DNA from: an uncultured Fimbriimonadaceae bacterium
GTDB taxonomy: Bacteria > Armatimonadota > Fimbriimonadia > Fimbriimonadales > Fimbriimonadaceae
Assembly: GCA_964501275.1 (NCBI GenBank)
Contig: CAZCSP010000010.1
Coordinates: 28,798 to 92,797, forward strand
DNA: 64,000 nt
Direction of reading: 5' to 3'
Under the pieces are notes generated by a model. It ran no database searches. It saw only the letters and a program-made list of their open reading frames with translations, and was not told where the DNA came from. The translations under genes were made by a program, and so were the position numbers. Positions 43,296-51,882 of the stretch are shown here, in pieces (the stretch's first letter is position 1; every line of letters begins with the position of its first letter).

Positions 43296-43745
43296 CTAAA
43301 ATCCCACCCAGCGACGATACGCCTCCGTCCAGTCTTTGGCCAAGGCCGCTTGAGCCTCCTCCAGCCGGATTGCTCCCTCCCGCACCAGCTTTCTCAGCCG
43401 AGCCTCCAGGGCCAGTTTTCGCTTGGGAGGCCAGTCCGACTGGTAGGCGTGGGGCCAGAGATTCCGCAGATCGTTGGACCCGCCCAGGCTCAGCGGGATC
43501 AGGTGGTCGATGTTGAACCCGGCCCGCTCCTTGGGCGCGATGCCGTACCGCCGATAGACCTTCTCCTTGGTTCTCTGATTCACCTCTCGCGATTGTTGCG
43601 AATAGCCAGGTTGGTCCAAGTCGGTCCAGGACAGCATCACGATGGAGCCGGGGGTGAGCGCGGGGTTGGGGAGGGACGTTGTGGGTTCCTCGGTTTTAGG
43701 TTCGGTGGGGGAGCAGGTTCCGATCAAGGTGACGATGTCTTTCAA
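43296..43745 (-). CDS. HNH endonuclease-motif protein
   Basis: GFNIDHLIPLSLGGSNDLRNLWPH is an HNH signature. The N-terminal ~35 codons are encoded by a hairpin repeat (PKTEEP), so the true start is uncertain. Confidence 0.68.
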   Translation of the reverse strand: MKDIVTLIGTCSPTEPKTEEPTTSLPNPALTPGSIVMLSWTDLDQPGYSQQSREVNQRTKEKVYRRYGIAPKERAGFNIDHLIPLSLGGSNDLRNLWPHAYQSDWPPKRKLALEARLRKLVREGAIRLEEAQAALAKDWTEAYRRWVGF

Positions 43746-43789
43746 CTCGCCTCTCCAACCAAAAACCTAAAACCTGCAACCGAGGAACC
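43684..43789. repeat. Hairpin element A: GGTTCCTCGGTTTTAGGTT (43684-43702) ... AACCTAAAACCTGCAACCGAGGAACC (43764-43789)
   Basis: Read directly. It spans the annotated start of the HNH gene. The same 19-mer and the same right arm (1 difference) occur at 46938-47003. Confidence 0.8.
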
Positions 43790-43797
43790 GCCTACCC

Positions 43798-44208
43798 TTA
43801 CCCATCCGGGCATGGGAGCGCGAGTTGGGGTGGGAGGATACCGAGGTGGGATTGCATCACTATGTGGAACATCCGCTGGGCCTCGGGGCGGCTGAGCTTG
43901 GGGAGTTCGGCTCGGGAGACCTGCTCTCCCGCCTGCAACCGCTCTCCCACCGCGCAGACCTCGTCCACCTTGGCCCAGAACTGGCGATCCTCCTCCCCCG
44001 GCTTCCACCGGTCCAACGGCAACGCGCCGTAGGCCAAGGCATACAGGCCCACCAAAGCCTGCATCGCGTTCTCCATGGTGAAGTCCATCGGCTGGGCGCG
44101 ATAGACCTCCTCGGGCTGGATTTTGGCAAGCTCCTCATAATCCACCCGCGCCCTCTTGCAGACGCACGGGCCAGGACACGGCAAACCGGACTCAGGACAA
44201 ATCGACAT
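43798..44208 (-). CDS. Hypothetical protein
   Basis: The ATG at 44208 was verified (MSICPESGLPCPGPCVCKRA...). The ORF-track extension to 44316 runs through GCACTTC heptads and is rejected. Confidence 0.5.
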   Translation of the reverse strand: MSICPESGLPCPGPCVCKRARVDYEELAKIQPEEVYRAQPMDFTMENAMQALVGLYALAYGALPLDRWKPGEEDRQFWAKVDEVCAVGERLQAGEQVSRAELPKLSRPEAQRMFHIVMQSHLGILPPQLALPCPDG

Positions 44209-44409
44209 AGAAACAGACACCTCTCTGGGTTTGGGTATCAGGCAGCTCGAAGATGTGGCTTGCGAGATGTGGAATGTGGGCGTGGGGATAGAGACGACGC
44301 ACTTCGCACTTCGCACTTAGAAATCCCCCGCCCCATCAGCCGTATCGTGCGCCTGTATCTATAAAGGCGTCGAGAAGCGATTTTGTCAACCTAGAATTTT
44401 GAGTTTCTG

Positions 44410-44898
44410 CTATTCGCTTTCAGTTGGTTGGTTGATCCGAATGAGAGGCATTATGATTGGTGGAATCTCCATCCTTACGCTAAGATTCTGTACAAGCTCA
44501 CGAGCATACGGTGTAACTACAAGCTTCAGAGCACCTTCTTTGAAAGCTTCAAAAAAACCAGGGGACACCTTGTCGCTGGTTGTGAAATCTGTCTGGAATG
44601 CAAAATCAAACTCAAGGGTAGGCACGCCTTTTTCGTTTGAGAATTCTAGCCTGTAGTGATTTACAACCATGAGGACGAATCCTCCCTCGATAGAGGCATG
44701 GTTATATGGGCAATTTATCTCTAGACGCGGCACCAGAGATTCCGCCTCATGAAATGCTCCGCGGTCAAGGAACCTACAATGACTCTCCAAAAGAGCAACG
44801 CTGACCAATTCCAATTTGGCAAGCGTGGCGGCATATTCCTTGGGGGATATTGCTTCGCTGACCGGCTTTGACTTCTTCTTTGTAGGACTTTTTGCCAT
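44410..44898 (-). CDS. SecB-like chaperone (third gene of tripartite TA module)
   Basis: The ATG at 44898 lies 1 nt after the hicB stop. EFDFAFQTDFTT...LKLVVTPYARELVQNLSVRMEIPPIIMPLIRIN parallels the SecB C-terminal signature (FPYARE...FPxLxLxPxNF) and the M. tuberculosis SecB-like chaperone pattern (LYPYIREYV...LPPLTL). Confidence 0.7.
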   Translation of the reverse strand: MAKSPTKKKSKPVSEAISPKEYAATLAKLELVSVALLESHCRFLDRGAFHEAESLVPRLEINCPYNHASIEGGFVLMVVNHYRLEFSNEKGVPTLEFDFAFQTDFTTSDKVSPGFFEAFKEGALKLVVTPYARELVQNLSVRMEIPPIIMPLIRINQPTESE

Positions 44899-44899
44899 A

Positions 44900-45412
44900 T
44901 TAGACAAGCGCTGGTTGTTGGATCCGGATGGGTTGGACAGGGACTTCAGCGATAAAGGGGCTTCCAGGCGCCCTTGTCCAATTAATTTGAAAGTGATGGT
45001 TTACCTTGAGATTGATCATTCGCGAGCTGATTGGGGTCAGATCACAGTGTTTCTGTTCAGCACCCCACGCCAGAATGCTCACAACCAAGGTGTTCAGTGA
45101 AACCCCTTCATCCCCTGAAAGCATATGCAACTTCCAGTGGAGACTTTTTGGCATTCTAACTGTCATCTTCCCACTATACGAGAGCCACTCTGGTGGATCT
45201 TCAGGCTCCGGTACTTCTTTTCCAGCTTCTCGTAGCAACTCAAGGAGGGCATCCCCGTTCTTGTAAAGGTTGCTTAGTGCTTGCGCCGGGGTTGAGCCAG
45301 TGCCAATGGCGCTACGTCCAAACTCTTTGAAGACAGCCTCATAGGTTAGGTCTCCATCCTCAATCTCGGGACGCACCAGTGCTGTGTACTTATTGGACTC
45401 TTTCATTTTCAT
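44900..45412 (-). CDS. hicB: HicB-family antitoxin with RHH domain and ~50-aa C-terminal extension
   Basis: The N-terminal HicB fold is followed by YSGKMTVRMPKSLHWKLHMLSGDEGVSLNTLVVSILA (HicB C-terminal RHH signature). About 50 further residues follow (KHCDLTPISSRMINLKVNHHFQINWTRAPGSPFIAEVPVQPIRIQQPALV). Confidence 0.8.
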   Translation of the reverse strand: MKMKESNKYTALVRPEIEDGDLTYEAVFKEFGRSAIGTGSTPAQALSNLYKNGDALLELLREAGKEVPEPEDPPEWLSYSGKMTVRMPKSLHWKLHMLSGDEGVSLNTLVVSILAWGAEQKHCDLTPISSRMINLKVNHHFQINWTRAPGSPFIAEVPVQPIRIQQPALV

Positions 45413-45735
45413 TCCTTCTCTTCAATCTCAGGTTCAGCGTGATCCTGCTCTACCTCATCGTGTTCCGATACCCACTTGATGGCTTCAACAATATCCCTTA
45501 CGGTTGAGGAACTCAAGTTAGGGCTTTTGCCCTTTCCGTGGGGTTTCGTGACTTGGATGAATCCGCCGACAAATTTAGGGTGGTCTGTGAGTAACTCATG
45601 GCTCCAGTGGTTTGTGTGCGTCTTCTTAGACGACACAAAGCCATAATGGAGCAGTAACGTCTCGGCGTCGCTGTAGGTAGCGTCTTTCTTGCTCGGGTTG
45701 GCGCGCCATTGCGCAAGGATTTTCTCGCAACTCAT
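45409..45735 (-). CDS. hicA: HicA-like toxin (long form)
   Basis: 108 aa. YSDAETLLLHYGFVSSKKTHTNHWSHEL...IQVTKPHGKGKSPNLSSSTVRDIVEAI follows the HicA layout (G-F, His, P-H-G, vr-i). ATGA overlap with hicB. Confidence 0.6.
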   Translation of the reverse strand: MSCEKILAQWRANPSKKDATYSDAETLLLHYGFVSSKKTHTNHWSHELLTDHPKFVGGFIQVTKPHGKGKSPNLSSSTVRDIVEAIKWVSEHDEVEQDHAEPEIEEKE

Positions 45736-46078
45736 TGAAGTTCAACATGCCACTGCATATGGTGGCATATTTTCCTCCATTCTGCAATACGTAGACTGAT
45801 CTTGACCAAAACACAGCAATCTTACCTCAGAACTTTTTGGCATCCAAAAGCTTTCATGCGCTCAACATCCTTGGTGTGGACTTGCCAAACAATCCAAAAC
45901 GGCATTCTAAAACCTGCTACGTTTAGGCATATATCGTGGGGTTTGCCCTCGAAAGTGTTGTTGATCGCTGGTTATCCATGATTCGAACATCTAGGTTGGC
46001 CCAGACTAGGCCCTGTCACTAGGACCGCAGACGATGTCTACAGAGCCACCCCAACCAATTCACTTGCAATCTGATCAA

Positions 46079-46104
46079 GATCAGCCATAGAGGTATGGCT
46101 GATC
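46079..46104 (-). terminator. Perfect 10-bp hairpin GATCAGCCAT-AGAGGT-ATGGCTGATC downstream of the Prim-Pol/helicase gene
   Basis: Read directly, about 40 nt after the stop at 46142. The T-run on the minus strand is only weak. Confidence 0.4.
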
Positions 46105-46141: not shown

Positions 46142-48064
46142 CTAAGGGTGGGCACGATCACCACCGCTCGAGAACAAACCTGCTTGGGTGAGGCGGTATT
46201 GCTTACGACCATTGACACGATCCCCAATCTCGACCAACCCCTCCAAAACCAACTCGCGCACATATCGGCGAACGGAGCTATAGGGAATCCCCGCATCCGA
46301 CGCAAGGCTCTCTGCATCCCGAGGGCCTTGTGTAAGCTTCCTTAGAATCACCTGCCTCGGACTATCTGGCGAGACCTCCCCTGCCGTCACCCCCTCTCCG
46401 TGCACCACCAACTCAAAATCCGTCACCGACGACGACCTTACGATCCAGTTTTGGTTGGCAAAGGTGCCTCGGCCTCGGCACTTCAGGGTGATCAGGCGGC
46501 CTCCTCCTCGCTCGTCTTTGGAGTCCATCAGGATGTCCATGGAGGCCGCCGCTAGAATCTGGTTGGAGTCGGCCATGCGCTCTCGGGTGAGGCCTGCGCC
46601 GACGTTTTTCGTGAGGTGGTGGATGACGATGGCGGTGCATCCCTCCTCGTTGCACAGCTCCTTCAGCCCCTCCAAAACCCCTCGCGCCGAGCGTCCGTCC
46701 GACAGGCTCTCCGCCGAGTTGGCCCCGTAGAGAGGGTCGATGACGATGAGCTTGGCGTGGTGCTTGCGCACGTTGTGGCGAAGCAGGGCCAGGCCGTCGG
46801 GCGTGTCGATCATGGGCCGGTCGTGGGTCACCAACAGGCGCGGCGAAGGCGTCCCATGCATCCGAATCATCATCGCCCGCTCCGCCCTGGACTCCTCGAA
46901 ACAGCACCAGAGGACCGAAGAGGGTTCTGGGTTGCTCGGTTCCTCGGTTTTAGGTTGGCGCGTCCCTTCAACCGAGGAACCTAAAACCGGGCAACCGAGG
47001 AACTCCTTCCCCTCCGCCACGGCAACCGCCAGGGCCGTCAGGAAACAGCTTTTCCCGGCCTTGCTGGTTCCGCCCAGGATCACCAGGTACCCGGCGGGGA
47101 GGAAGCCTTCCACAATCCACTCCGTCTCGGCATCCTGCTCCTCCAGATACTCGGGCGCGGCCACAAAGGCGGCGTCGTACCGGACCTTCTCGGCCTCGGG
47201 ATCGGGCAACACCGCCACCACCGACGACTTGCCGATAGGCGTTCGAATCTCTCTCTCAATCAACATCTCTTTCTCCGGAAGGGCATTCGCCCAAATGGCA
47301 AGCTGGCCCACCTCGTATCGGGGTAGCGGAGGCTGGCACTGGGTCTGGTTCAGGGCAAACAGGCACTGGGCCAAAGCCTCGCCCCGCACCTCGGCGCGAT
47401 GCAGTAACAGAGCCTGCCGCATCAAGTGTTCGTGCCGGGAGCCTGGGGGAATTGCTTGAGTGCTTGATTGCTCGATGGCTAGATTCTCTTTCTCTCCATT
47501 CGAGCAATCCCGCATTCCAGCAATCAAGCAGTTCCGAGCAACCCCAAGCTCCTCCAAACTCCTCGTCGGCACCACGTCCCCAGGCTCCGTCACCCACTCT
47601 CGCACCATGCCGCTGGGATGAATGGTCGGCGGGACCACCACCAGCTTTCCCTCCGAAATCAGGTCGCCCGCGACTTGCCCGCCGTCCTTCAGCCAAAACT
47701 TCCCGCTCCTTTCCACCGTCTCCGTCCGAAAGAACACATGCCTTCCCCGCGCCGACTTGGCGGTGGGCAGTTCCCTTGCCGACTCCGGGTTGGCTGCCGC
47801 CCACGCCTCATAAGCCTCCAGGTCGTCGAAGTCCAGGCAGACCAGGTTCCCGCTAACCGCTCCACACACCACCGCCAAGCCCTGATCCTCCAACTCCCAT
47901 CGCGCCGCCTCCTCCTCCGAGGCCCTCCTTCCCTGATACACCTTCCAGTTCAAGTCGGGGAACTTCTGCCGATGAGGCACCGGCACCACCGACCAACCAC
48001 GTCGCAAATACAGTAGACAATTGTATACCATACATATATACATTTTCAGAACGCCTCTTGTCAA
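46142..48064 (-). CDS. Bifunctional Prim-Pol primase domain / RepA-like P-loop ATPase / C-terminal winged-HTH protein
   Basis: N-terminus: LRRGWSVVPVPHRQKFPDLNWKVYQ...LAVVCGAVSGNLVCLDFDD...GRHVFF...VVVPPTIHPSG (Prim-Pol). Middle: Walker A LGGTSKAGKS, Walker B LIVIDPLY, IVIHHLTKN. C-terminus: LASDAGIPYSSVRRYVRELVLEGLVE (wHTH). Confidence 0.85.
   Translation of the reverse strand: MTRGVLKMYICMVYNCLLYLRRGWSVVPVPHRQKFPDLNWKVYQGRRASEEEAARWELEDQGLAVVCGAVSGNLVCLDFDDLEAYEAWAAANPESARELPTAKSARGRHVFFRTETVERSGKFWLKDGGQVAGDLISEGKLVVVPPTIHPSGMVREWVTEPGDVVPTRSLEELGVARNCLIAGMRDCSNGEKENLAIEQSSTQAIPPGSRHEHLMRQALLLHRAEVRGEALAQCLFALNQTQCQPPLPRYEVGQLAIWANALPEKEMLIEREIRTPIGKSSVVAVLPDPEAEKVRYDAAFVAAPEYLEEQDAETEWIVEGFLPAGYLVILGGTSKAGKSCFLTALAVAVAEGKEFLGCPVLGSSVEGTRQPKTEEPSNPEPSSVLWCCFEESRAERAMMIRMHGTPSPRLLVTHDRPMIDTPDGLALLRHNVRKHHAKLIVIDPLYGANSAESLSDGRSARGVLEGLKELCNEEGCTAIVIHHLTKNVGAGLTRERMADSNQILAAASMDILMDSKDERGGGRLITLKCRGRGTFANQNWIVRSSSVTDFELVVHGEGVTAGEVSPDSPRQVILRKLTQGPRDAESLASDAGIPYSSVRRYVRELVLEGLVEIGDRVNGRKQYRLTQAGLFSSGGDRAHP
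46938..47003. repeat. Hairpin element B inside the Prim-Pol/helicase ORF: GGTTCCTCGGTTTTAGGTT (46938-46956) ... AACCTAAAACCGGGCAACCGAGGAAC (46978-47003)
   Basis: Read directly. It is translated in frame as ...GSSVEGTRQPKTEEPSNPEP... just after the Walker A helix. The 19-mer is identical to 43684-43702. Confidence 0.8.
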
Positions 48065-50769: not shown

Positions 50770-51882
50770 ATGACAAGTAAACCTATCACTCTTATCTTGG
50801 CTAGCTCCGGCGTCGGAGGCACTGAGGAGGCGACTCGCCTACTCGCGACCGGATTGTCCCGCCGGAACCACCCTCTTCATCTGGTGGCAGTCGCGGAGAA
50901 AGTACACTCTTATCTCGATTCCAACGGAAACCAAGCGGTCCTGCTTCCCAATCTGCAAAGCGATGGATTCAAACCATCGCAGGTCCTTCGAATCGCAAAG
51001 GATTTCCGGGCCTATCGACATTCCCTCGTCAATATCCAACATCCAAACTTTGATTTTTCTCTTAGTTTGATCCTCGGGATGAGACTCGGCGGAATCCGTT
51101 CCGCGATCTACACTCTTCACCATCCCTTGGTCGGACGGCCGTCCACCGCAAAGGCCACACGCCCTCTCCTAAGAAGAAGCGATACGGTCCTGGTCACCAC
51201 CGAACCAAACAAAGAAACGCTTTCAAGGTACGGACATAGTGGCAAAGCTCAAGTGAAAGTGTGTCGATTAGCAGTTGAAGACCCTAATCCAATAACAAAA
51301 TCTGCCGCCCGACGCGAACTAGGAATTCCAGAAGATGGTTTGGTGGTGAGCTGCCAGGCGAGGTTTACCAAGCCAAAACGGATTCCCCTTGTTGTAGACG
51401 CTTTTAAACTGGCGACCAAAGACATGCCGCAGTCAATGCTCGTCATTGGCGGCACCGGTCCCGAATTCGAATCCGTAAAAGCCTACGCCGAGGAGCAGTT
51501 GGGAGACAAGGTCCGATTGCTGGGGTGGGTCGAAGATAAATCGCATCTCCACGCCGCATGTGACGCCTTCGTACTCCTTTCCGATCTGGAAGGTTTTGGG
51601 ATGGTTTACATGGAAGCGGCTTCCTACGGAGCGCCAAGTATTGGGTGTCTTGGGGGAGGGATTTCCGACGCCATTGTGGACGGGGAAACCGGTTACTTGG
51701 TACCTGTCGAAGCCCCCGTCAAGCAGGCAGCCGGTCGGCTGAGGGAAATGCTCACGAACGCGGATACCTGTCGGCGACTGGGAGAAAACGCAAAGGCGCG
51801 TTATCAATCGGAGTTCACCATCGATGAAATGACCAATCGGTACCTGAATTTATGCGAAGAACATTTAAAAGGAAGCCGTTAA
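50770..51882 (+). CDS. GT4-family (GT-B) glycosyltransferase
   Basis: N-terminal SSGVGGTEEATRLLA. C-terminal EGFGMVYMEAASYGAPSIG...DAIVDGETGYLV is an E-x7-E-type GT4 signature. G+C is visibly lower than in the flanking ilv genes. Confidence 0.85.
   Translation: MTSKPITLILASSGVGGTEEATRLLATGLSRRNHPLHLVAVAEKVHSYLDSNGNQAVLLPNLQSDGFKPSQVLRIAKDFRAYRHSLVNIQHPNFDFSLSLILGMRLGGIRSAIYTLHHPLVGRPSTAKATRPLLRRSDTVLVTTEPNKETLSRYGHSGKAQVKVCRLAVEDPNPITKSAARRELGIPEDGLVVSCQARFTKPKRIPLVVDAFKLATKDMPQSMLVIGGTGPEFESVKAYAEEQLGDKVRLLGWVEDKSHLHAACDAFVLLSDLEGFGMVYMEAASYGAPSIGCLGGGISDAIVDGETGYLVPVEAPVKQAAGRLREMLTNADTCRRLGENAKARYQSEFTIDEMTNRYLNLCEEHLKGSR

What the first reader, a model, noticed from the sequence alone, without database searches (positions are those of the whole stretch)
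44410..45735. Tripartite HicA - HicB(with C-terminal extension) - SecB-like chaperone module (TAC-type)
Seen: three overlapping or abutting minus-strand genes sit in a markedly AT-richer cassette.
1. A 108-aa HicA-like protein.
2. A 170-aa HicB with the YSGKMTVRMPKSLHWKLHML..GVSLNTLV ribbon-helix-helix signature, followed by ~50 extra C-terminal residues rich in aromatic and hydrophobic positions (…INLKVNHHFQINWTRAPGSPFIAEVPVQPIRI…).
3. A 162-aa protein whose C-terminal half (EFDFAFQTDF...VVTPYARELVQNLSVRMEIPPIIMPLIRIN) mirrors the SecB signature.

The hicA/hicB junction is ATGA. The chaperone ATG lies 1 nt after the hicB stop.

Established: toxin-antitoxin-chaperone (TAC) systems, exemplified by M. 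tuberculosis HigB1-HigA1-SecB-like, use a SecB-like chaperone. It binds a C-terminal chaperone-addiction extension of the antitoxin. HicAB-based versions have been reported but are rare and little studied.

Inference: this is a HicAB-type TAC in a phylum where, as far as I know, none has been examined.
Basis: partly seen in the sequence, partly recalled or inferred. Interest (0 to 1): 0.7.

Follow-up and report, generated by a model that had tools for sequence, protein, structure and literature searches.

The report
HicAB-type toxin–antitoxin–chaperone (TAC) module
This is an intact three-gene toxin–antitoxin–chaperone cassette of an already known type, here with an unusually divergent toxin and sitting in a probable Armatimonadota genome, so it is a solid but ordinary new example.

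Summary
Three tightly coupled minus-strand genes (45735-45409, 45412-44900, 44898-44410) lie in a stretch of 46-50% GC flanked by 58-65% GC.

- **Gene 2** is a HicB antitoxin. It matches the Pfam HicB ribbon-helix-helix (RHH) model at E 5e-9, and hhalign gives 99.2% probability against two-component HicBs. It has about 47 extra C-terminal residues that two-component HicBs lack.
- **Gene 3** is SecB-like. Its family profile hits Rv1957 at E 7e-9. The AlphaFold model (pLDDT 93.7) best matches the M. tuberculosis TAC chaperone 5mtw (E 4e-9), then SecB.
- **Gene 1** matches no curated model. Its synteny-derived family aligns to HicA by hhalign (94%, E 1.4e-7; unrelated controls 0.1-0.4%). An invariant His40 falls on the catalytic GSH histidine.

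The same three-gene order recurs in every related metagenomic locus that has upstream DNA. A 19-nt palindrome before the toxin start is conserved in four loci and is probably the HicB operator.

HicAB-type TACs were catalogued in 2012 and validated experimentally in 2016 (Methylomonas methanica). This is therefore a new member of a known kind. Toxicity, chaperone dependence and any phage-defence role are inferred, not shown.

The parts
45409..45735 (-). Toxin gene, 108 aa: a divergent HicA-like protein. The putative catalytic His40 codon is at 45616-45618. The C-terminus is acidic.
   Evidence: - ORF listed.
- No Pfam, NCBIfam or PADLOC hit. PHROG 'toxin' at E 0.016.
- Only itself found in the 5.8-billion-cluster word-index search.
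- Five syntenic relatives at 22-38% identity, with D18, E25 and H40 invariant.
- Two of these relatives hit the N-terminal half of Pfam HicA_toxin below threshold, E 1e-3 and 0.012.
- hhalign against the HicA reference set: Prob 94%, E 1.4e-7, 77 columns, H40 aligned on the GSH histidine. Controls gave 0.1% and 0.4%.
- Single-sequence AF2 model, pLDDT 78, order alpha-alpha-beta-beta-(short alpha)-beta-alpha.
- Top BFVD hits are 'Toxin' and 'HICA protein', E about 1e-3, TM 0.54-0.68.
44900..45412 (-). Antitoxin gene, 170 aa: HicB. It has an N-terminal toxin-binding domain (about residues 5-75), a ribbon-helix-helix domain and a C-terminal tail.
   Evidence: - Pfam HicB PF05534, E 5e-9, 36.4 bits against a cutoff of 21, residues 78-114.
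- hhalign to five two-component plasmid HicBs: Prob 99.2%, E 2e-19, residues 5-123.
- ATGA overlap with the toxin gene.
45071..45181 (-). [quoted passage not shown]
   Evidence: Pfam PF05534 match. S80, G81, R86, H92, S105 and N107 are invariant across 14 HicBs.
44903..45043 (-). C-terminal extension of HicB (residues 124-170). This is the candidate chaperone-addiction (ChAD) region. It contains the alternating hydrophobic/aromatic stretch INLKVNHHFQINW.
   Evidence: - In alignment A8, all 10 chaperone-linked HicBs continue 40-70 residues past the RHH domain. Four two-component HicBs stop 0-12 residues after it.
- The hhalign match to two-component HicBs ends at residue 123.
- The role as a ChAD is inferred from PMC5105189 and PMC6377645.
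44410..44898 (-). SecB-like TAC chaperone gene, 162 aa. Its ATG lies 1 nt after the hicB stop.
   Evidence: - phmmer's only PDB hit is Rv1957, E 0.15. PADLOC PD-T4-9_C, E 0.0038.
- 278 relatives in the full HMMER search.
- Family profile against PDB: Rv1957 7e-9; H. influenzae SecB 1e-4 over the full length; E. coli SecB 3e-4.
- 35 of 82 relatives hit Pfam SecB.
- AF2 pLDDT 93.7, pTM 0.82.
- Foldseek top hits are 5mtw chains (E 4e-9, TM 0.67/0.77), then SecB 1fx3, 1ozb and 1qyn.
45747..45768 (-). Palindrome ATGCCACCATATGCAGTGGCAT, 12-33 nt upstream of the toxin ATG. It is the probable HicB operator for autoregulation.
   Evidence: - Inverted repeat found.
- The core TGCCACCATATNNNGTGGC is unique in the window, with 0.01 expected.
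- The same core sits just upstream of the toxin gene in L006, L007/L008 and L010, although the proteins are only 29-46% identical.
- Binding by HicB is inferred.

Best explanation
This is a tripartite type II toxin-antitoxin-chaperone (TAC) operon of the HicAB class.

**Shown**
- Three translationally coupled genes encode a HicA-like small protein with an invariant histidine at the HicA catalytic position.
- The second gene encodes a HicB antitoxin with an N-terminal toxin-binding domain, an RHH domain and a 47-residue tail.
- The third gene encodes a SecB-fold protein closest to the M. tuberculosis TAC chaperone.
- The trio is conserved as a unit in unrelated metagenomic contexts.
- A palindrome before the toxin gene is conserved across these loci.

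**Inferred**
- The toxin is a ribosome-independent RNase.
- HicB neutralises it through its N-terminal domain and represses the operon by binding the palindrome through its RHH dimer.
- The HicB tail makes the antitoxin aggregation- or protease-prone unless it is held, in extended form, by the SecB-like tetramer.
- Anything that titrates or depletes the chaperone therefore frees the toxin and arrests growth. Examples are unfolded client proteins or a phage structural protein that mimics the tail.
- The low GC and the neighbouring PrimPol-helicase gene suggest horizontal arrival on a mobile element. That would fit an addiction or defence role.
For: - **Anatomy:**
- **HicB:**
- **Tail specific to chaperone-linked HicBs:**
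- **SecB-like identity by profile and by fold:**
- **HicA-like toxin:**, with negative controls in 105 and 106.
- **Synteny:** HicB precedes the chaperone homologue in L006, L007/8, L010, L093, L094, L095/6, L097/8 and L099. A 94-112 aa toxin-family gene precedes HicB wherever the contig reaches that far.
- **L004:** it carries a Pfam-positive HicA, an extended HicB and a Pfam-SecB protein.
- **Conserved operator:**
- **Literature:**
  - HicB-RHH antitoxins form one of three canonical TAC classes, and most TACs lie in compositionally alien regions (PMC3581621).
  - The M. methanica HicAB-SecB operon is a bona fide TAC whose ChAD is HicB residues 119-159 (PMC5105189).
  - ChAD binds SecB-TA in an extended conformation (PMC6377645).
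  - TAC chaperones sense phage proteins (10.1101/2024.02.24.581848; PMC11618068).
Against: - No experiment exists here. Toxicity, neutralisation, chaperone dependence and operator binding are all inferred.
- The toxin itself matches no curated HicA model.
- Its family profile finds no HicA in the PDB by HMM.
- Its single-sequence model gives no significant PDB Foldseek hit. E. coli HicA 6hpb ranks 44th (E 7.2, TM 0.59 on the target length).
- The window's chaperone does not itself reach Pfam SecB.
- The tail shares no sequence similarity with characterised ChADs. This is expected, because ChADs are not conserved, but it means the tail's role rests on position and composition only.
- No integrase, tRNA or clear element boundary was found.
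Confidence: 0.8

Rival explanations
1. The antitoxin and chaperone are as described, but gene 1 is not a HicA-type RNase. It would be a different small toxin, in fold or activity, that has been recruited in front of a HicB-SecB pair. Antitoxin domains are known to be re-paired promiscuously with toxins.
For: - No curated HicA model recognises it.
- HMM profiles of the family do not reach HicA structures in the PDB.
- PDB Foldseek gives nothing significant.
- It carries a roughly 12-residue insertion between strands 2 and 3 relative to HicA.
- Toxin-antitoxin re-pairing is documented (PMC10440598, abstract seen).
Against: - hhalign gives 94% and E 1.4e-7 over 77 of about 87 HicA columns, with the invariant His on the GSH His. 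Unrelated controls give 0.1-0.4%.
- Two relatives hit Pfam HicA_toxin at E 1e-3 and 0.012.
- The predicted secondary-structure order matches the HicA double-stranded-RNA-binding-like fold.
- The best BFVD structural hits are named Toxin and HICA.
Confidence: 0.1
2. The locus is an ordinary two-component HicAB. The third gene would be a general, export-type or solitary SecB chaperone that merely lies downstream, and the HicB tail would be irrelevant.
For: - The protein has the SecB fold, and the family profile also matches the export SecBs of H. influenzae and E. coli.
- The SecA-binding acidic cluster was not evaluated.
Against: - The start codon lies 1 nt after the hicB stop.
- Every homologue with upstream DNA sits directly after an extended HicB, in otherwise unrelated neighbourhoods.
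- The best sequence and fold matches are to the TAC chaperone Rv1957, not to export SecB.
- The HicB extension co-occurs with the chaperone and is missing from two-component HicBs.
- The gene shares the low GC of the cassette, not that of the host.
Confidence: 0.04
3. The cassette is an inactive remnant. It would have been acquired horizontally and no longer be expressed or toxic, with intact ORFs but no function.
For: - It lies beside what looks like a fragmentary mobile element. There is a PrimPol-helicase gene but no integrase, tRNA or att sites.
- No strong consensus promoter or Shine-Dalgarno sequence was found for the toxin gene.
- No close relatives exist to test purifying selection.
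Against: - All three ORFs are full length, with family-invariant residues intact: H40 in the toxin, the RHH signature in HicB, and R133, P130, P146 and P151 in the chaperone.
- The gene overlaps are preserved.
- The operator palindrome is intact and identical in core to that of distant relatives.
Confidence: 0.06

Closest known systems
Mmet-TAC of Methylomonas methanica MC09 (HicA Metme_2813, HicB Metme_2812, SecB-TA); Bordes et al. 2016, PMC5105189
   Same: - The architecture is the same: hicA, then hicB with a C-terminal extension, then a SecB-like gene.
- The antitoxin is a HicB with an RHH domain.
- The Mmet ChAD was mapped to HicB residues 119-159, the same position and about the same length as residues 124-170 here.
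- The system was shown to be chaperone-dependent in E. coli.
   Different: - No sequence of the Mmet proteins was available here, so identity could not be measured.
- The toxin here belongs to a clade that the Pfam HicA model does not detect.
- The host is a probable Armatimonadota member rather than a gammaproteobacterium.
- Nothing has been tested experimentally here.
M. tuberculosis TAC HigB1-HigA1-Rv1957 (PDB 5mtw); PMC6377645, PMC3581621
   Same: - Rv1957 is the best sequence and fold match of the third gene.
- The operon logic is the same: a C-terminal antitoxin extension held by a SecB-like tetramer.
   Different: - The toxin-antitoxin pair is HigBA (RelE-fold toxin, HTH antitoxin), not HicAB.
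- The chaperones are only about 20% identical.
- The ChAD sequences are unrelated.
Two-component HicAB systems (E. coli HicAB, PDB 6hpb; plasmid HicABs in L100-L103 and L117)
   Same: - The HicB N-terminal domain and RHH domain are homologous (hhalign 99.2%).
- The toxin is homologous at profile level, with a conserved catalytic histidine.
- The toxin gene comes first and overlaps the antitoxin gene.
   Different: - Two-component HicBs end 0-12 residues after the RHH domain and have no third gene.
- The toxin here is longer, at 108 aa against 58-86 aa. It has an insertion between strands 2 and 3 and an acidic tail.
Anti-phage TACs: E. coli HigBAC and CmdTAC (PD-T4-9); 10.1101/2024.02.24.581848, PMC11618068
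   Same: - They have a SecB-like third gene. The window's chaperone hits the PADLOC PD-T4-9_C model weakly (E 0.0038).
- They have mobile-element context.
- They are modular, combining a toxin-antitoxin 'warhead' with a chaperone 'sensor'.
   Different: - Their toxins are different: HigB, and the CmdT ADP-ribosyltransferase.
- Defence and its triggers (lambda gpV, capsid protein) were shown experimentally there. Here a defence role is only an inference.

Membership tests
TAC (toxin-antitoxin-chaperone) systems | A tricistronic operon in the order toxin, antitoxin, chaperone, with tight coupling | tested here: met
   There is a 4-nt ATGA overlap and then a 1-nt gap, all on the minus strand. The same order is seen in L006, L007, L010, L095, L097 and L004.
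TAC (toxin-antitoxin-chaperone) systems | The third gene encodes a SecB-fold protein | tested here: met
   AF2 pLDDT is 93.7. Foldseek to 5mtw gives E 4e-9 and TM 0.67/0.77, followed by SecB structures. The family profile hits Rv1957 at 7e-9 and SecB at 1e-4.
TAC (toxin-antitoxin-chaperone) systems | The antitoxin carries a C-terminal extension (ChAD) that two-component homologues lack | tested here: met
   There are 47 residues beyond the RHH domain. All 10 chaperone-linked HicBs are extended, and none of 4 two-component HicBs is. The hhalign match ends at residue 123.
TAC (toxin-antitoxin-chaperone) systems | The chaperone binds the extension and is required for toxin neutralisation | not testable with these tools
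   This needs co-expression assays, binding assays or multimer structure prediction. None was available.
HicA toxin (Pfam PF07927) | Recognised by the curated family model above threshold | tested here: not met
   The window protein has no hit in Pfam or NCBIfam. Relatives in L006 and L007 reach only E 1e-3 and 0.012 (19.6 and 16.1 bits against a cutoff of 27), and only on the N-terminal half.
HicA toxin (Pfam PF07927) | Homology to HicA at profile level, with the catalytic histidine conserved | tested here: met
   hhalign of A6 against A7 gives Prob 94%, E 1.4e-7 over 77 columns, with invariant H40 aligned to the GSH histidine. Controls give 0.1% and 0.4%. In the reference set A7, two members are Pfam-positive (L004, L102) and three are named 'toxin HicA' by RefSeq only.
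HicA toxin (Pfam PF07927) | A double-stranded-RNA-binding-like alpha-beta-beta-beta-alpha fold | tested here: inconclusive
   - The single-sequence AF2 model (pLDDT 78) has the right order of elements.
- PDB Foldseek is not significant; 6hpb HicA ranks 44th at E 7.2.
- The BFVD top hits 'Toxin' and 'HICA protein' reach E 1.2e-3 and 1.7e-3, TM 0.54-0.68.
HicA toxin (Pfam PF07927) | Ribosome-independent RNase activity and toxicity | not testable with these tools
   This requires experiment.
HicB antitoxin, RHH type (Pfam PF05534) | A C-terminal ribbon-helix-helix domain matching the curated model | tested here: met
   E 5e-9, 36.4 bits against a cutoff of 21, residues 78-114.
HicB antitoxin, RHH type (Pfam PF05534) | An N-terminal HicA-binding domain homologous to that of two-component HicBs | tested here: met
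   hhalign gives 99.2% and E 2e-19 from residue 5 to 123 against five plasmid HicBs. Relatives P0155 and P0156 carry PF15919.
SecB export chaperone (Pfam PF02556) | Recognised by the curated SecB model | tested here: not met
   The window protein has no Pfam hit. Of its 82 aligned relatives, 35 hit SecB at E<=0.01. It is therefore filed as SecB-like (the TAC branch), not as export SecB.
SecB export chaperone (Pfam PF02556) | An acidic SecA-binding surface and a role in export | not tested
   Residue-level mapping on the model was not possible with the tools at hand.

The most novel reading that the evidence does not exclude
The window's toxin and its syntenic relatives may form a distinct HicA-like clade. 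Three observations define it.
- It is invisible to current curated models.
- So far it is found only inside TAC operons.
- It carries its own conserved operator (TGCCACCATAT-N3-GTGGC).

In this reading the cassette is a mobile anti-phage module whose SecB-like chaperone senses a phage protein, in an Armatimonadota lineage where no defence or TA system has been studied.
Probability: 0.3. Interest if true: 0.45.

Novelty: new member of a known kind. Interest (0 to 1): 0.3.

Why it matters
**What it adds**
- It gives a well-documented HicAB-type TAC from an almost unstudied phylum.
- It shows that curated HicA and SecB models miss a whole clade of such systems, so genome surveys of TACs and HicAB undercount them.
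- The conserved operator and the set of paired HicB tails and chaperones give ready material for studying how ChAD-chaperone specificity evolves.
- If the defence reading holds, the chaperone is a candidate phage sensor.

**What it does not add**
- It opens no new mechanism. The class was catalogued in 2012 and validated in 2016.

Tried and rejected
- **Word-index protein searches.** Searches with the chaperone and with the toxin found only the proteins themselves. Relatives of the chaperone came only from the full HMMER scan. Relatives of the toxin came only through synteny.
- **The search for related loci, HicB alignment.** It found nothing in 185,579 species-representative genomes. In the JGI metagenomes it found only the contig already known.
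- **Toxin profiles against the PDB.** Only spurious hits came back: a His-tag region of YehR, and FcpA. The canonical HicA of L004 also found no PDB chain by phmmer.
- **Structure prediction for the toxin.** PDB Foldseek on that model was not significant.
- **Operator pattern in viral contigs.** There were 13 exact matches, roughly the number expected by chance. None lies near a related ORF by hmmsearch, so they were rejected.
- **Mobile-element boundaries.**
  - The window holds no tRNA.
  - The nearest genome (L012) shares the region from ilvB onwards but nothing upstream of it.
  - No flanking att-like direct repeats were found beyond a small hairpin element.
  - Rfam gave only a chance miRNA-like hit on that hairpin.
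- **Methylomonas plasmid HicA hit (H4).** I checked it as a possible relative of the validated Mmet-TAC. It is a two-component HicAB.
- **Supplement of PMC5105189.** It holds no sequences.
Full report
**1. Observation**

The ORF list and the minus-strand sequence show three consecutive genes:
- 45735-45409, 108 aa;
- 45412-44900, 170 aa;
- 44898-44410, 162 aa from the ATG. NCBI's own product P0001 is also 162 aa.

Genes 1 and 2 overlap by ATGA. The gene 2 stop TAA is followed by one base and then the ATG of gene 3. GC falls to 0.455-0.50 between 44200 and 46200, against 0.57-0.65 on either side. Three Logan contigs from separate sequencing runs are 100% identical to the window over this region. 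The sequence is therefore not an assembly accident.

**2. Antitoxin**

- Gene 2 matches Pfam HicB (ribbon-helix-helix, RHH) above threshold: E 5e-9, 36.4 bits against a cutoff of 21, residues 78-114.
- Its few database relatives carry PF05534 together with the HicB N-terminal families PF15919 and PF15970.
- A profile of the four closest HicBs aligns to five two-component plasmid HicBs with 99.2% probability (E 2e-19), from residue 5 to residue 123. The N-terminal toxin-binding domain and the RHH domain are therefore both HicB.
- The match stops at residue 123.
- In a 14-sequence alignment, all ten HicBs that precede a SecB-like gene run on for 40-70 residues after the RHH domain. The four two-component HicBs end 0-12 residues after it.
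- The tails are poorly conserved. They share a short stretch of alternating hydrophobic or aromatic residues. In the window this is INLKVNHHFQINW; in relatives it is LVINAF, FTVQF and MQLNVI.
- This fits what is known of ChAD elements. They are variable in sequence and rich in aromatics, and they bind the chaperone in an extended conformation (PMC5105189, PMC6377645).

**3. Chaperone**

- Gene 3 has no Pfam, NCBIfam or word-index relatives.
- Its only PDB hit by phmmer is the M. tuberculosis TAC chaperone Rv1957 (E 0.15). It also weakly hits the third component of the defence system PD-T4-9 in PADLOC (E 0.0038).
- A full HMMER scan of 1.84 billion representatives found 278 relatives. The best non-self hit is 36% identical.
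- A profile of 82 of these hits Rv1957 at 7e-9. It also hits H. influenzae SecB at 1e-4 over essentially the whole length, and E. coli SecB at 3e-4.
- 35 of the 82 relatives individually hit Pfam SecB.
- The AlphaFold model built on that alignment is confident (pLDDT 93.7, pTM 0.82).
- Its best Foldseek matches are the four chains of 5mtw (E 4e-9 to 1e-7, TM 0.67/0.77), followed by SecB structures.
- The third gene is therefore SecB-like and closest to the TAC branch.

**4. Toxin**

This is the weakest assignment.
- Gene 1 matches no curated model. It has a single marginal PHROG 'toxin' hit. It is alone in the word-index search.
- I recovered relatives through synteny. The genes upstream of HicB in L006, L007, L010, L095 and L097 encode 94-112 aa proteins that are 22-38% identical to it, with D18, E25 and H40 invariant.
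- Two of these relatives hit the N-terminal half of Pfam HicA_toxin below threshold (E 1e-3 and 0.012).
- I built a reference HicA set from five sequences. One is the Pfam-positive HicA of L004. The other four are plasmid genes annotated as HicA toxin in RefSeq, and one of those (L102) is also Pfam-positive.
- hhalign between the two alignments gives 94% probability and E 1.4e-7 over 77 columns. H40 lands on the histidine of the HicA GSH motif.
- The same toxin profile against two unrelated alignments gives 0.1% and 0.4%.
- A single-sequence AlphaFold model (pLDDT 78) has the order helix-helix-strand-strand-(short helix)-strand-helix expected for a long HicA.
- That model finds nothing significant in the PDB. 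E. coli HicA ranks 44th, with TM 0.59 on the target length.
- Its top matches among predicted viral structures are proteins named 'Toxin' and 'HICA protein' (E 1.2e-3 and 1.7e-3, TM 0.54-0.68).
- I conclude that it is a divergent HicA-like protein. It works like a HicA with fair confidence, but it is not a member by the curated model.

**5. Conservation of the unit**

- Every chaperone homologue for which upstream DNA exists is directly preceded by a HicB-RHH gene. These loci are L006, L007/8, L010, L093, L094, L095/6, L097/8 and L099.
- The genes beyond the trio differ from locus to locus. Examples are an IS1-like transposase, a DUF4412 protein and a phage adaptor.
- The three genes therefore travel as a module.
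- A more distant HicB relative, L004 on a 378-kb contig, is flanked by a canonical HicA and a Pfam-SecB protein.

**6. Operator**

- A palindrome, ATGCCACCATATGCAGTGGCAT, lies at 45768-45747, 12-33 nt before the toxin ATG.
- Its core, TGCCACCATATNNNGTGGC, is unique in the window, where 0.01 matches are expected.
- The same core recurs at the same position in L006, L007/8 and L010, whose proteins are only 29-46% identical to the window's.
- This is best explained as the binding site of the HicB RHH dimer. Autoregulation through palindromic operators is established for RHH antitoxins, but the assignment here is inferred.

**7. Context and host**

- Immediately upstream lies a 640-aa Prim-Pol + AAA_25 + winged-helix protein, typical of mobile-element replicases.
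- Downstream lie a 172-aa orphan ORF and a weak HNH-like ORF.
- I found no integrase, tRNA or att repeats.
- IlvB next door is 76% identical to that of an uncultured Armatimonadetes MAG, and the next best hit is 55%. Synteny with that MAG continues through the downstream genes at 64-80% identity. The host is therefore probably Armatimonadota.
- The genome itself is not in the species-representative collection.

**8. Mechanism**

- Shown: the three families, their coupling, the chaperone-linked tail and the conserved palindrome.
- Inferred by analogy with Mtb-TAC and Mmet-TAC (PMC5105189, PMC6377645) are these steps:
  - The HicA-like RNase is neutralised by HicB.
  - HicB needs the SecB-like tetramer bound to its tail in order to fold and to escape degradation.
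  - The complex represses its own promoter.
  - Loss or titration of the chaperone releases the toxin.
- More speculative is a defence role, suggested by the anti-phage TACs (10.1101/2024.02.24.581848, PMC11618068). The chaperone would act as a sensor for a phage protein that competes with the tail.

**9. Novelty**

- TACs with HicB-RHH antitoxins were catalogued in 2012 (PMC3581621). That survey also noted their patchy distribution and frequent location in compositionally alien regions, as seen here.
- One such system was validated in 2016 (PMC5105189).
- This is therefore a new member of a known kind.
- What is mildly new:
  - the toxin clade escapes curated models;
  - the operator is conserved across distant loci;
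  - the host phylum has no TAC literature in the library.
- Interest 0.3.

Noticed in passing
window 45742-45778 (minus strand): A strong Shine-Dalgarno-like GGAGGA (45778-45773) is followed 4 nt later by an ATG. This opens an 8-codon mini-ORF (MPPYAVAC*) that spans the operator palindrome and stops 6 nt before the toxin ATG. The toxin ATG has no obvious Shine-Dalgarno sequence of its own. L010 has a similar GTG-started 9-codon mini-ORF across its palindrome; L007 does not. The mini-ORF could be a by-product of the palindrome or a translational-coupling leader.
   Followed up: partly
window 43684-43789 and 46938-46996: Two copies of a small hairpin element flank the cassette about 3.25 kb apart.
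- Its arms match GGTTCCTCGGTTTTAGGTT with 0-2 mismatches.
- These four arm matches are the only ones in the window, where 0.01 are expected.
- Copy B lies in frame inside the PrimPol-AAA_25 ORF and encodes ..PKTEEP...
- Copy A lies in the dubious N-terminus of the 43296-43745 ORF and also encodes ..PKTEEP...
- This looks like a MITE- or REP-like palindromic element that tolerates in-frame insertion.
- The weak Rfam mir-3910 hit at 46932-47002 is just this hairpin.
   Followed up: partly
window 46142-48064 (minus strand): A 640-aa protein carries Prim-Pol (E 7.5e-20), PriCT-1, AAA_25 (E 5.8e-26) and a C-terminal winged-helix domain. This is a mobile-element or plasmid-type primase-helicase. Its GC is host-like (0.60-0.64), unlike that of the TAC cassette. 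No integrase or tRNA lies nearby.
   Followed up: partly
window 46079-46104: A perfect 11-bp inverted repeat, GATCAGCCATA/TATGGCTGATC, with a 4-nt loop lies just after the PrimPol-helicase stop codon. It may be a terminator or a protein-binding site that separates that gene from the TAC promoter region.
   Followed up: no
window 43296-43745 and 43798-44316 (minus strand): Downstream of the TAC lie a 172-aa ORF with no family hit and a 149-aa ORF with sub-threshold HNH matches (HNH_5, E 1.8e-4). Neither is found next to the TAC in related loci, so they are not part of the module.
   Followed up: partly
window 50770-51882 (plus strand) against L012:3566-3622: A GT4 glycosyltransferase gene is present in the window between two blocks that are nearly adjacent in the closest Armatimonadetes MAG. 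The flanking window coordinates are about 50603 and 51928. This appears to be an insertion into the conserved gene cluster downstream of ilvB.
   Followed up: no
L004:3737-5142 (JGI 3300018910, 378-kb contig): A second HicAB-type TAC that is easier to recognise: a Pfam-positive HicA (86 aa), a HicB of 186 aa with a long tail, and a 189-aa protein hitting Pfam SecB (E 3.6e-5). It has a different palindrome upstream (GGTTCCATATGGTATC).
   Followed up: partly
L009:163-2552: The chaperone homologue P0006 lies on a contig that also carries an SU10_adaptor (phage head-tail adaptor) gene. This hints that some members of the family are phage- or prophage-borne.
   Followed up: no
L100, L101, L103 (plasmid HicA genes): Three RefSeq proteins annotated 'toxin HicA' have no Pfam HicA_toxin hit at E<=0.01. 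The Pfam model therefore misses long-form HicAs more generally, not only the window's clade.
   Followed up: partly
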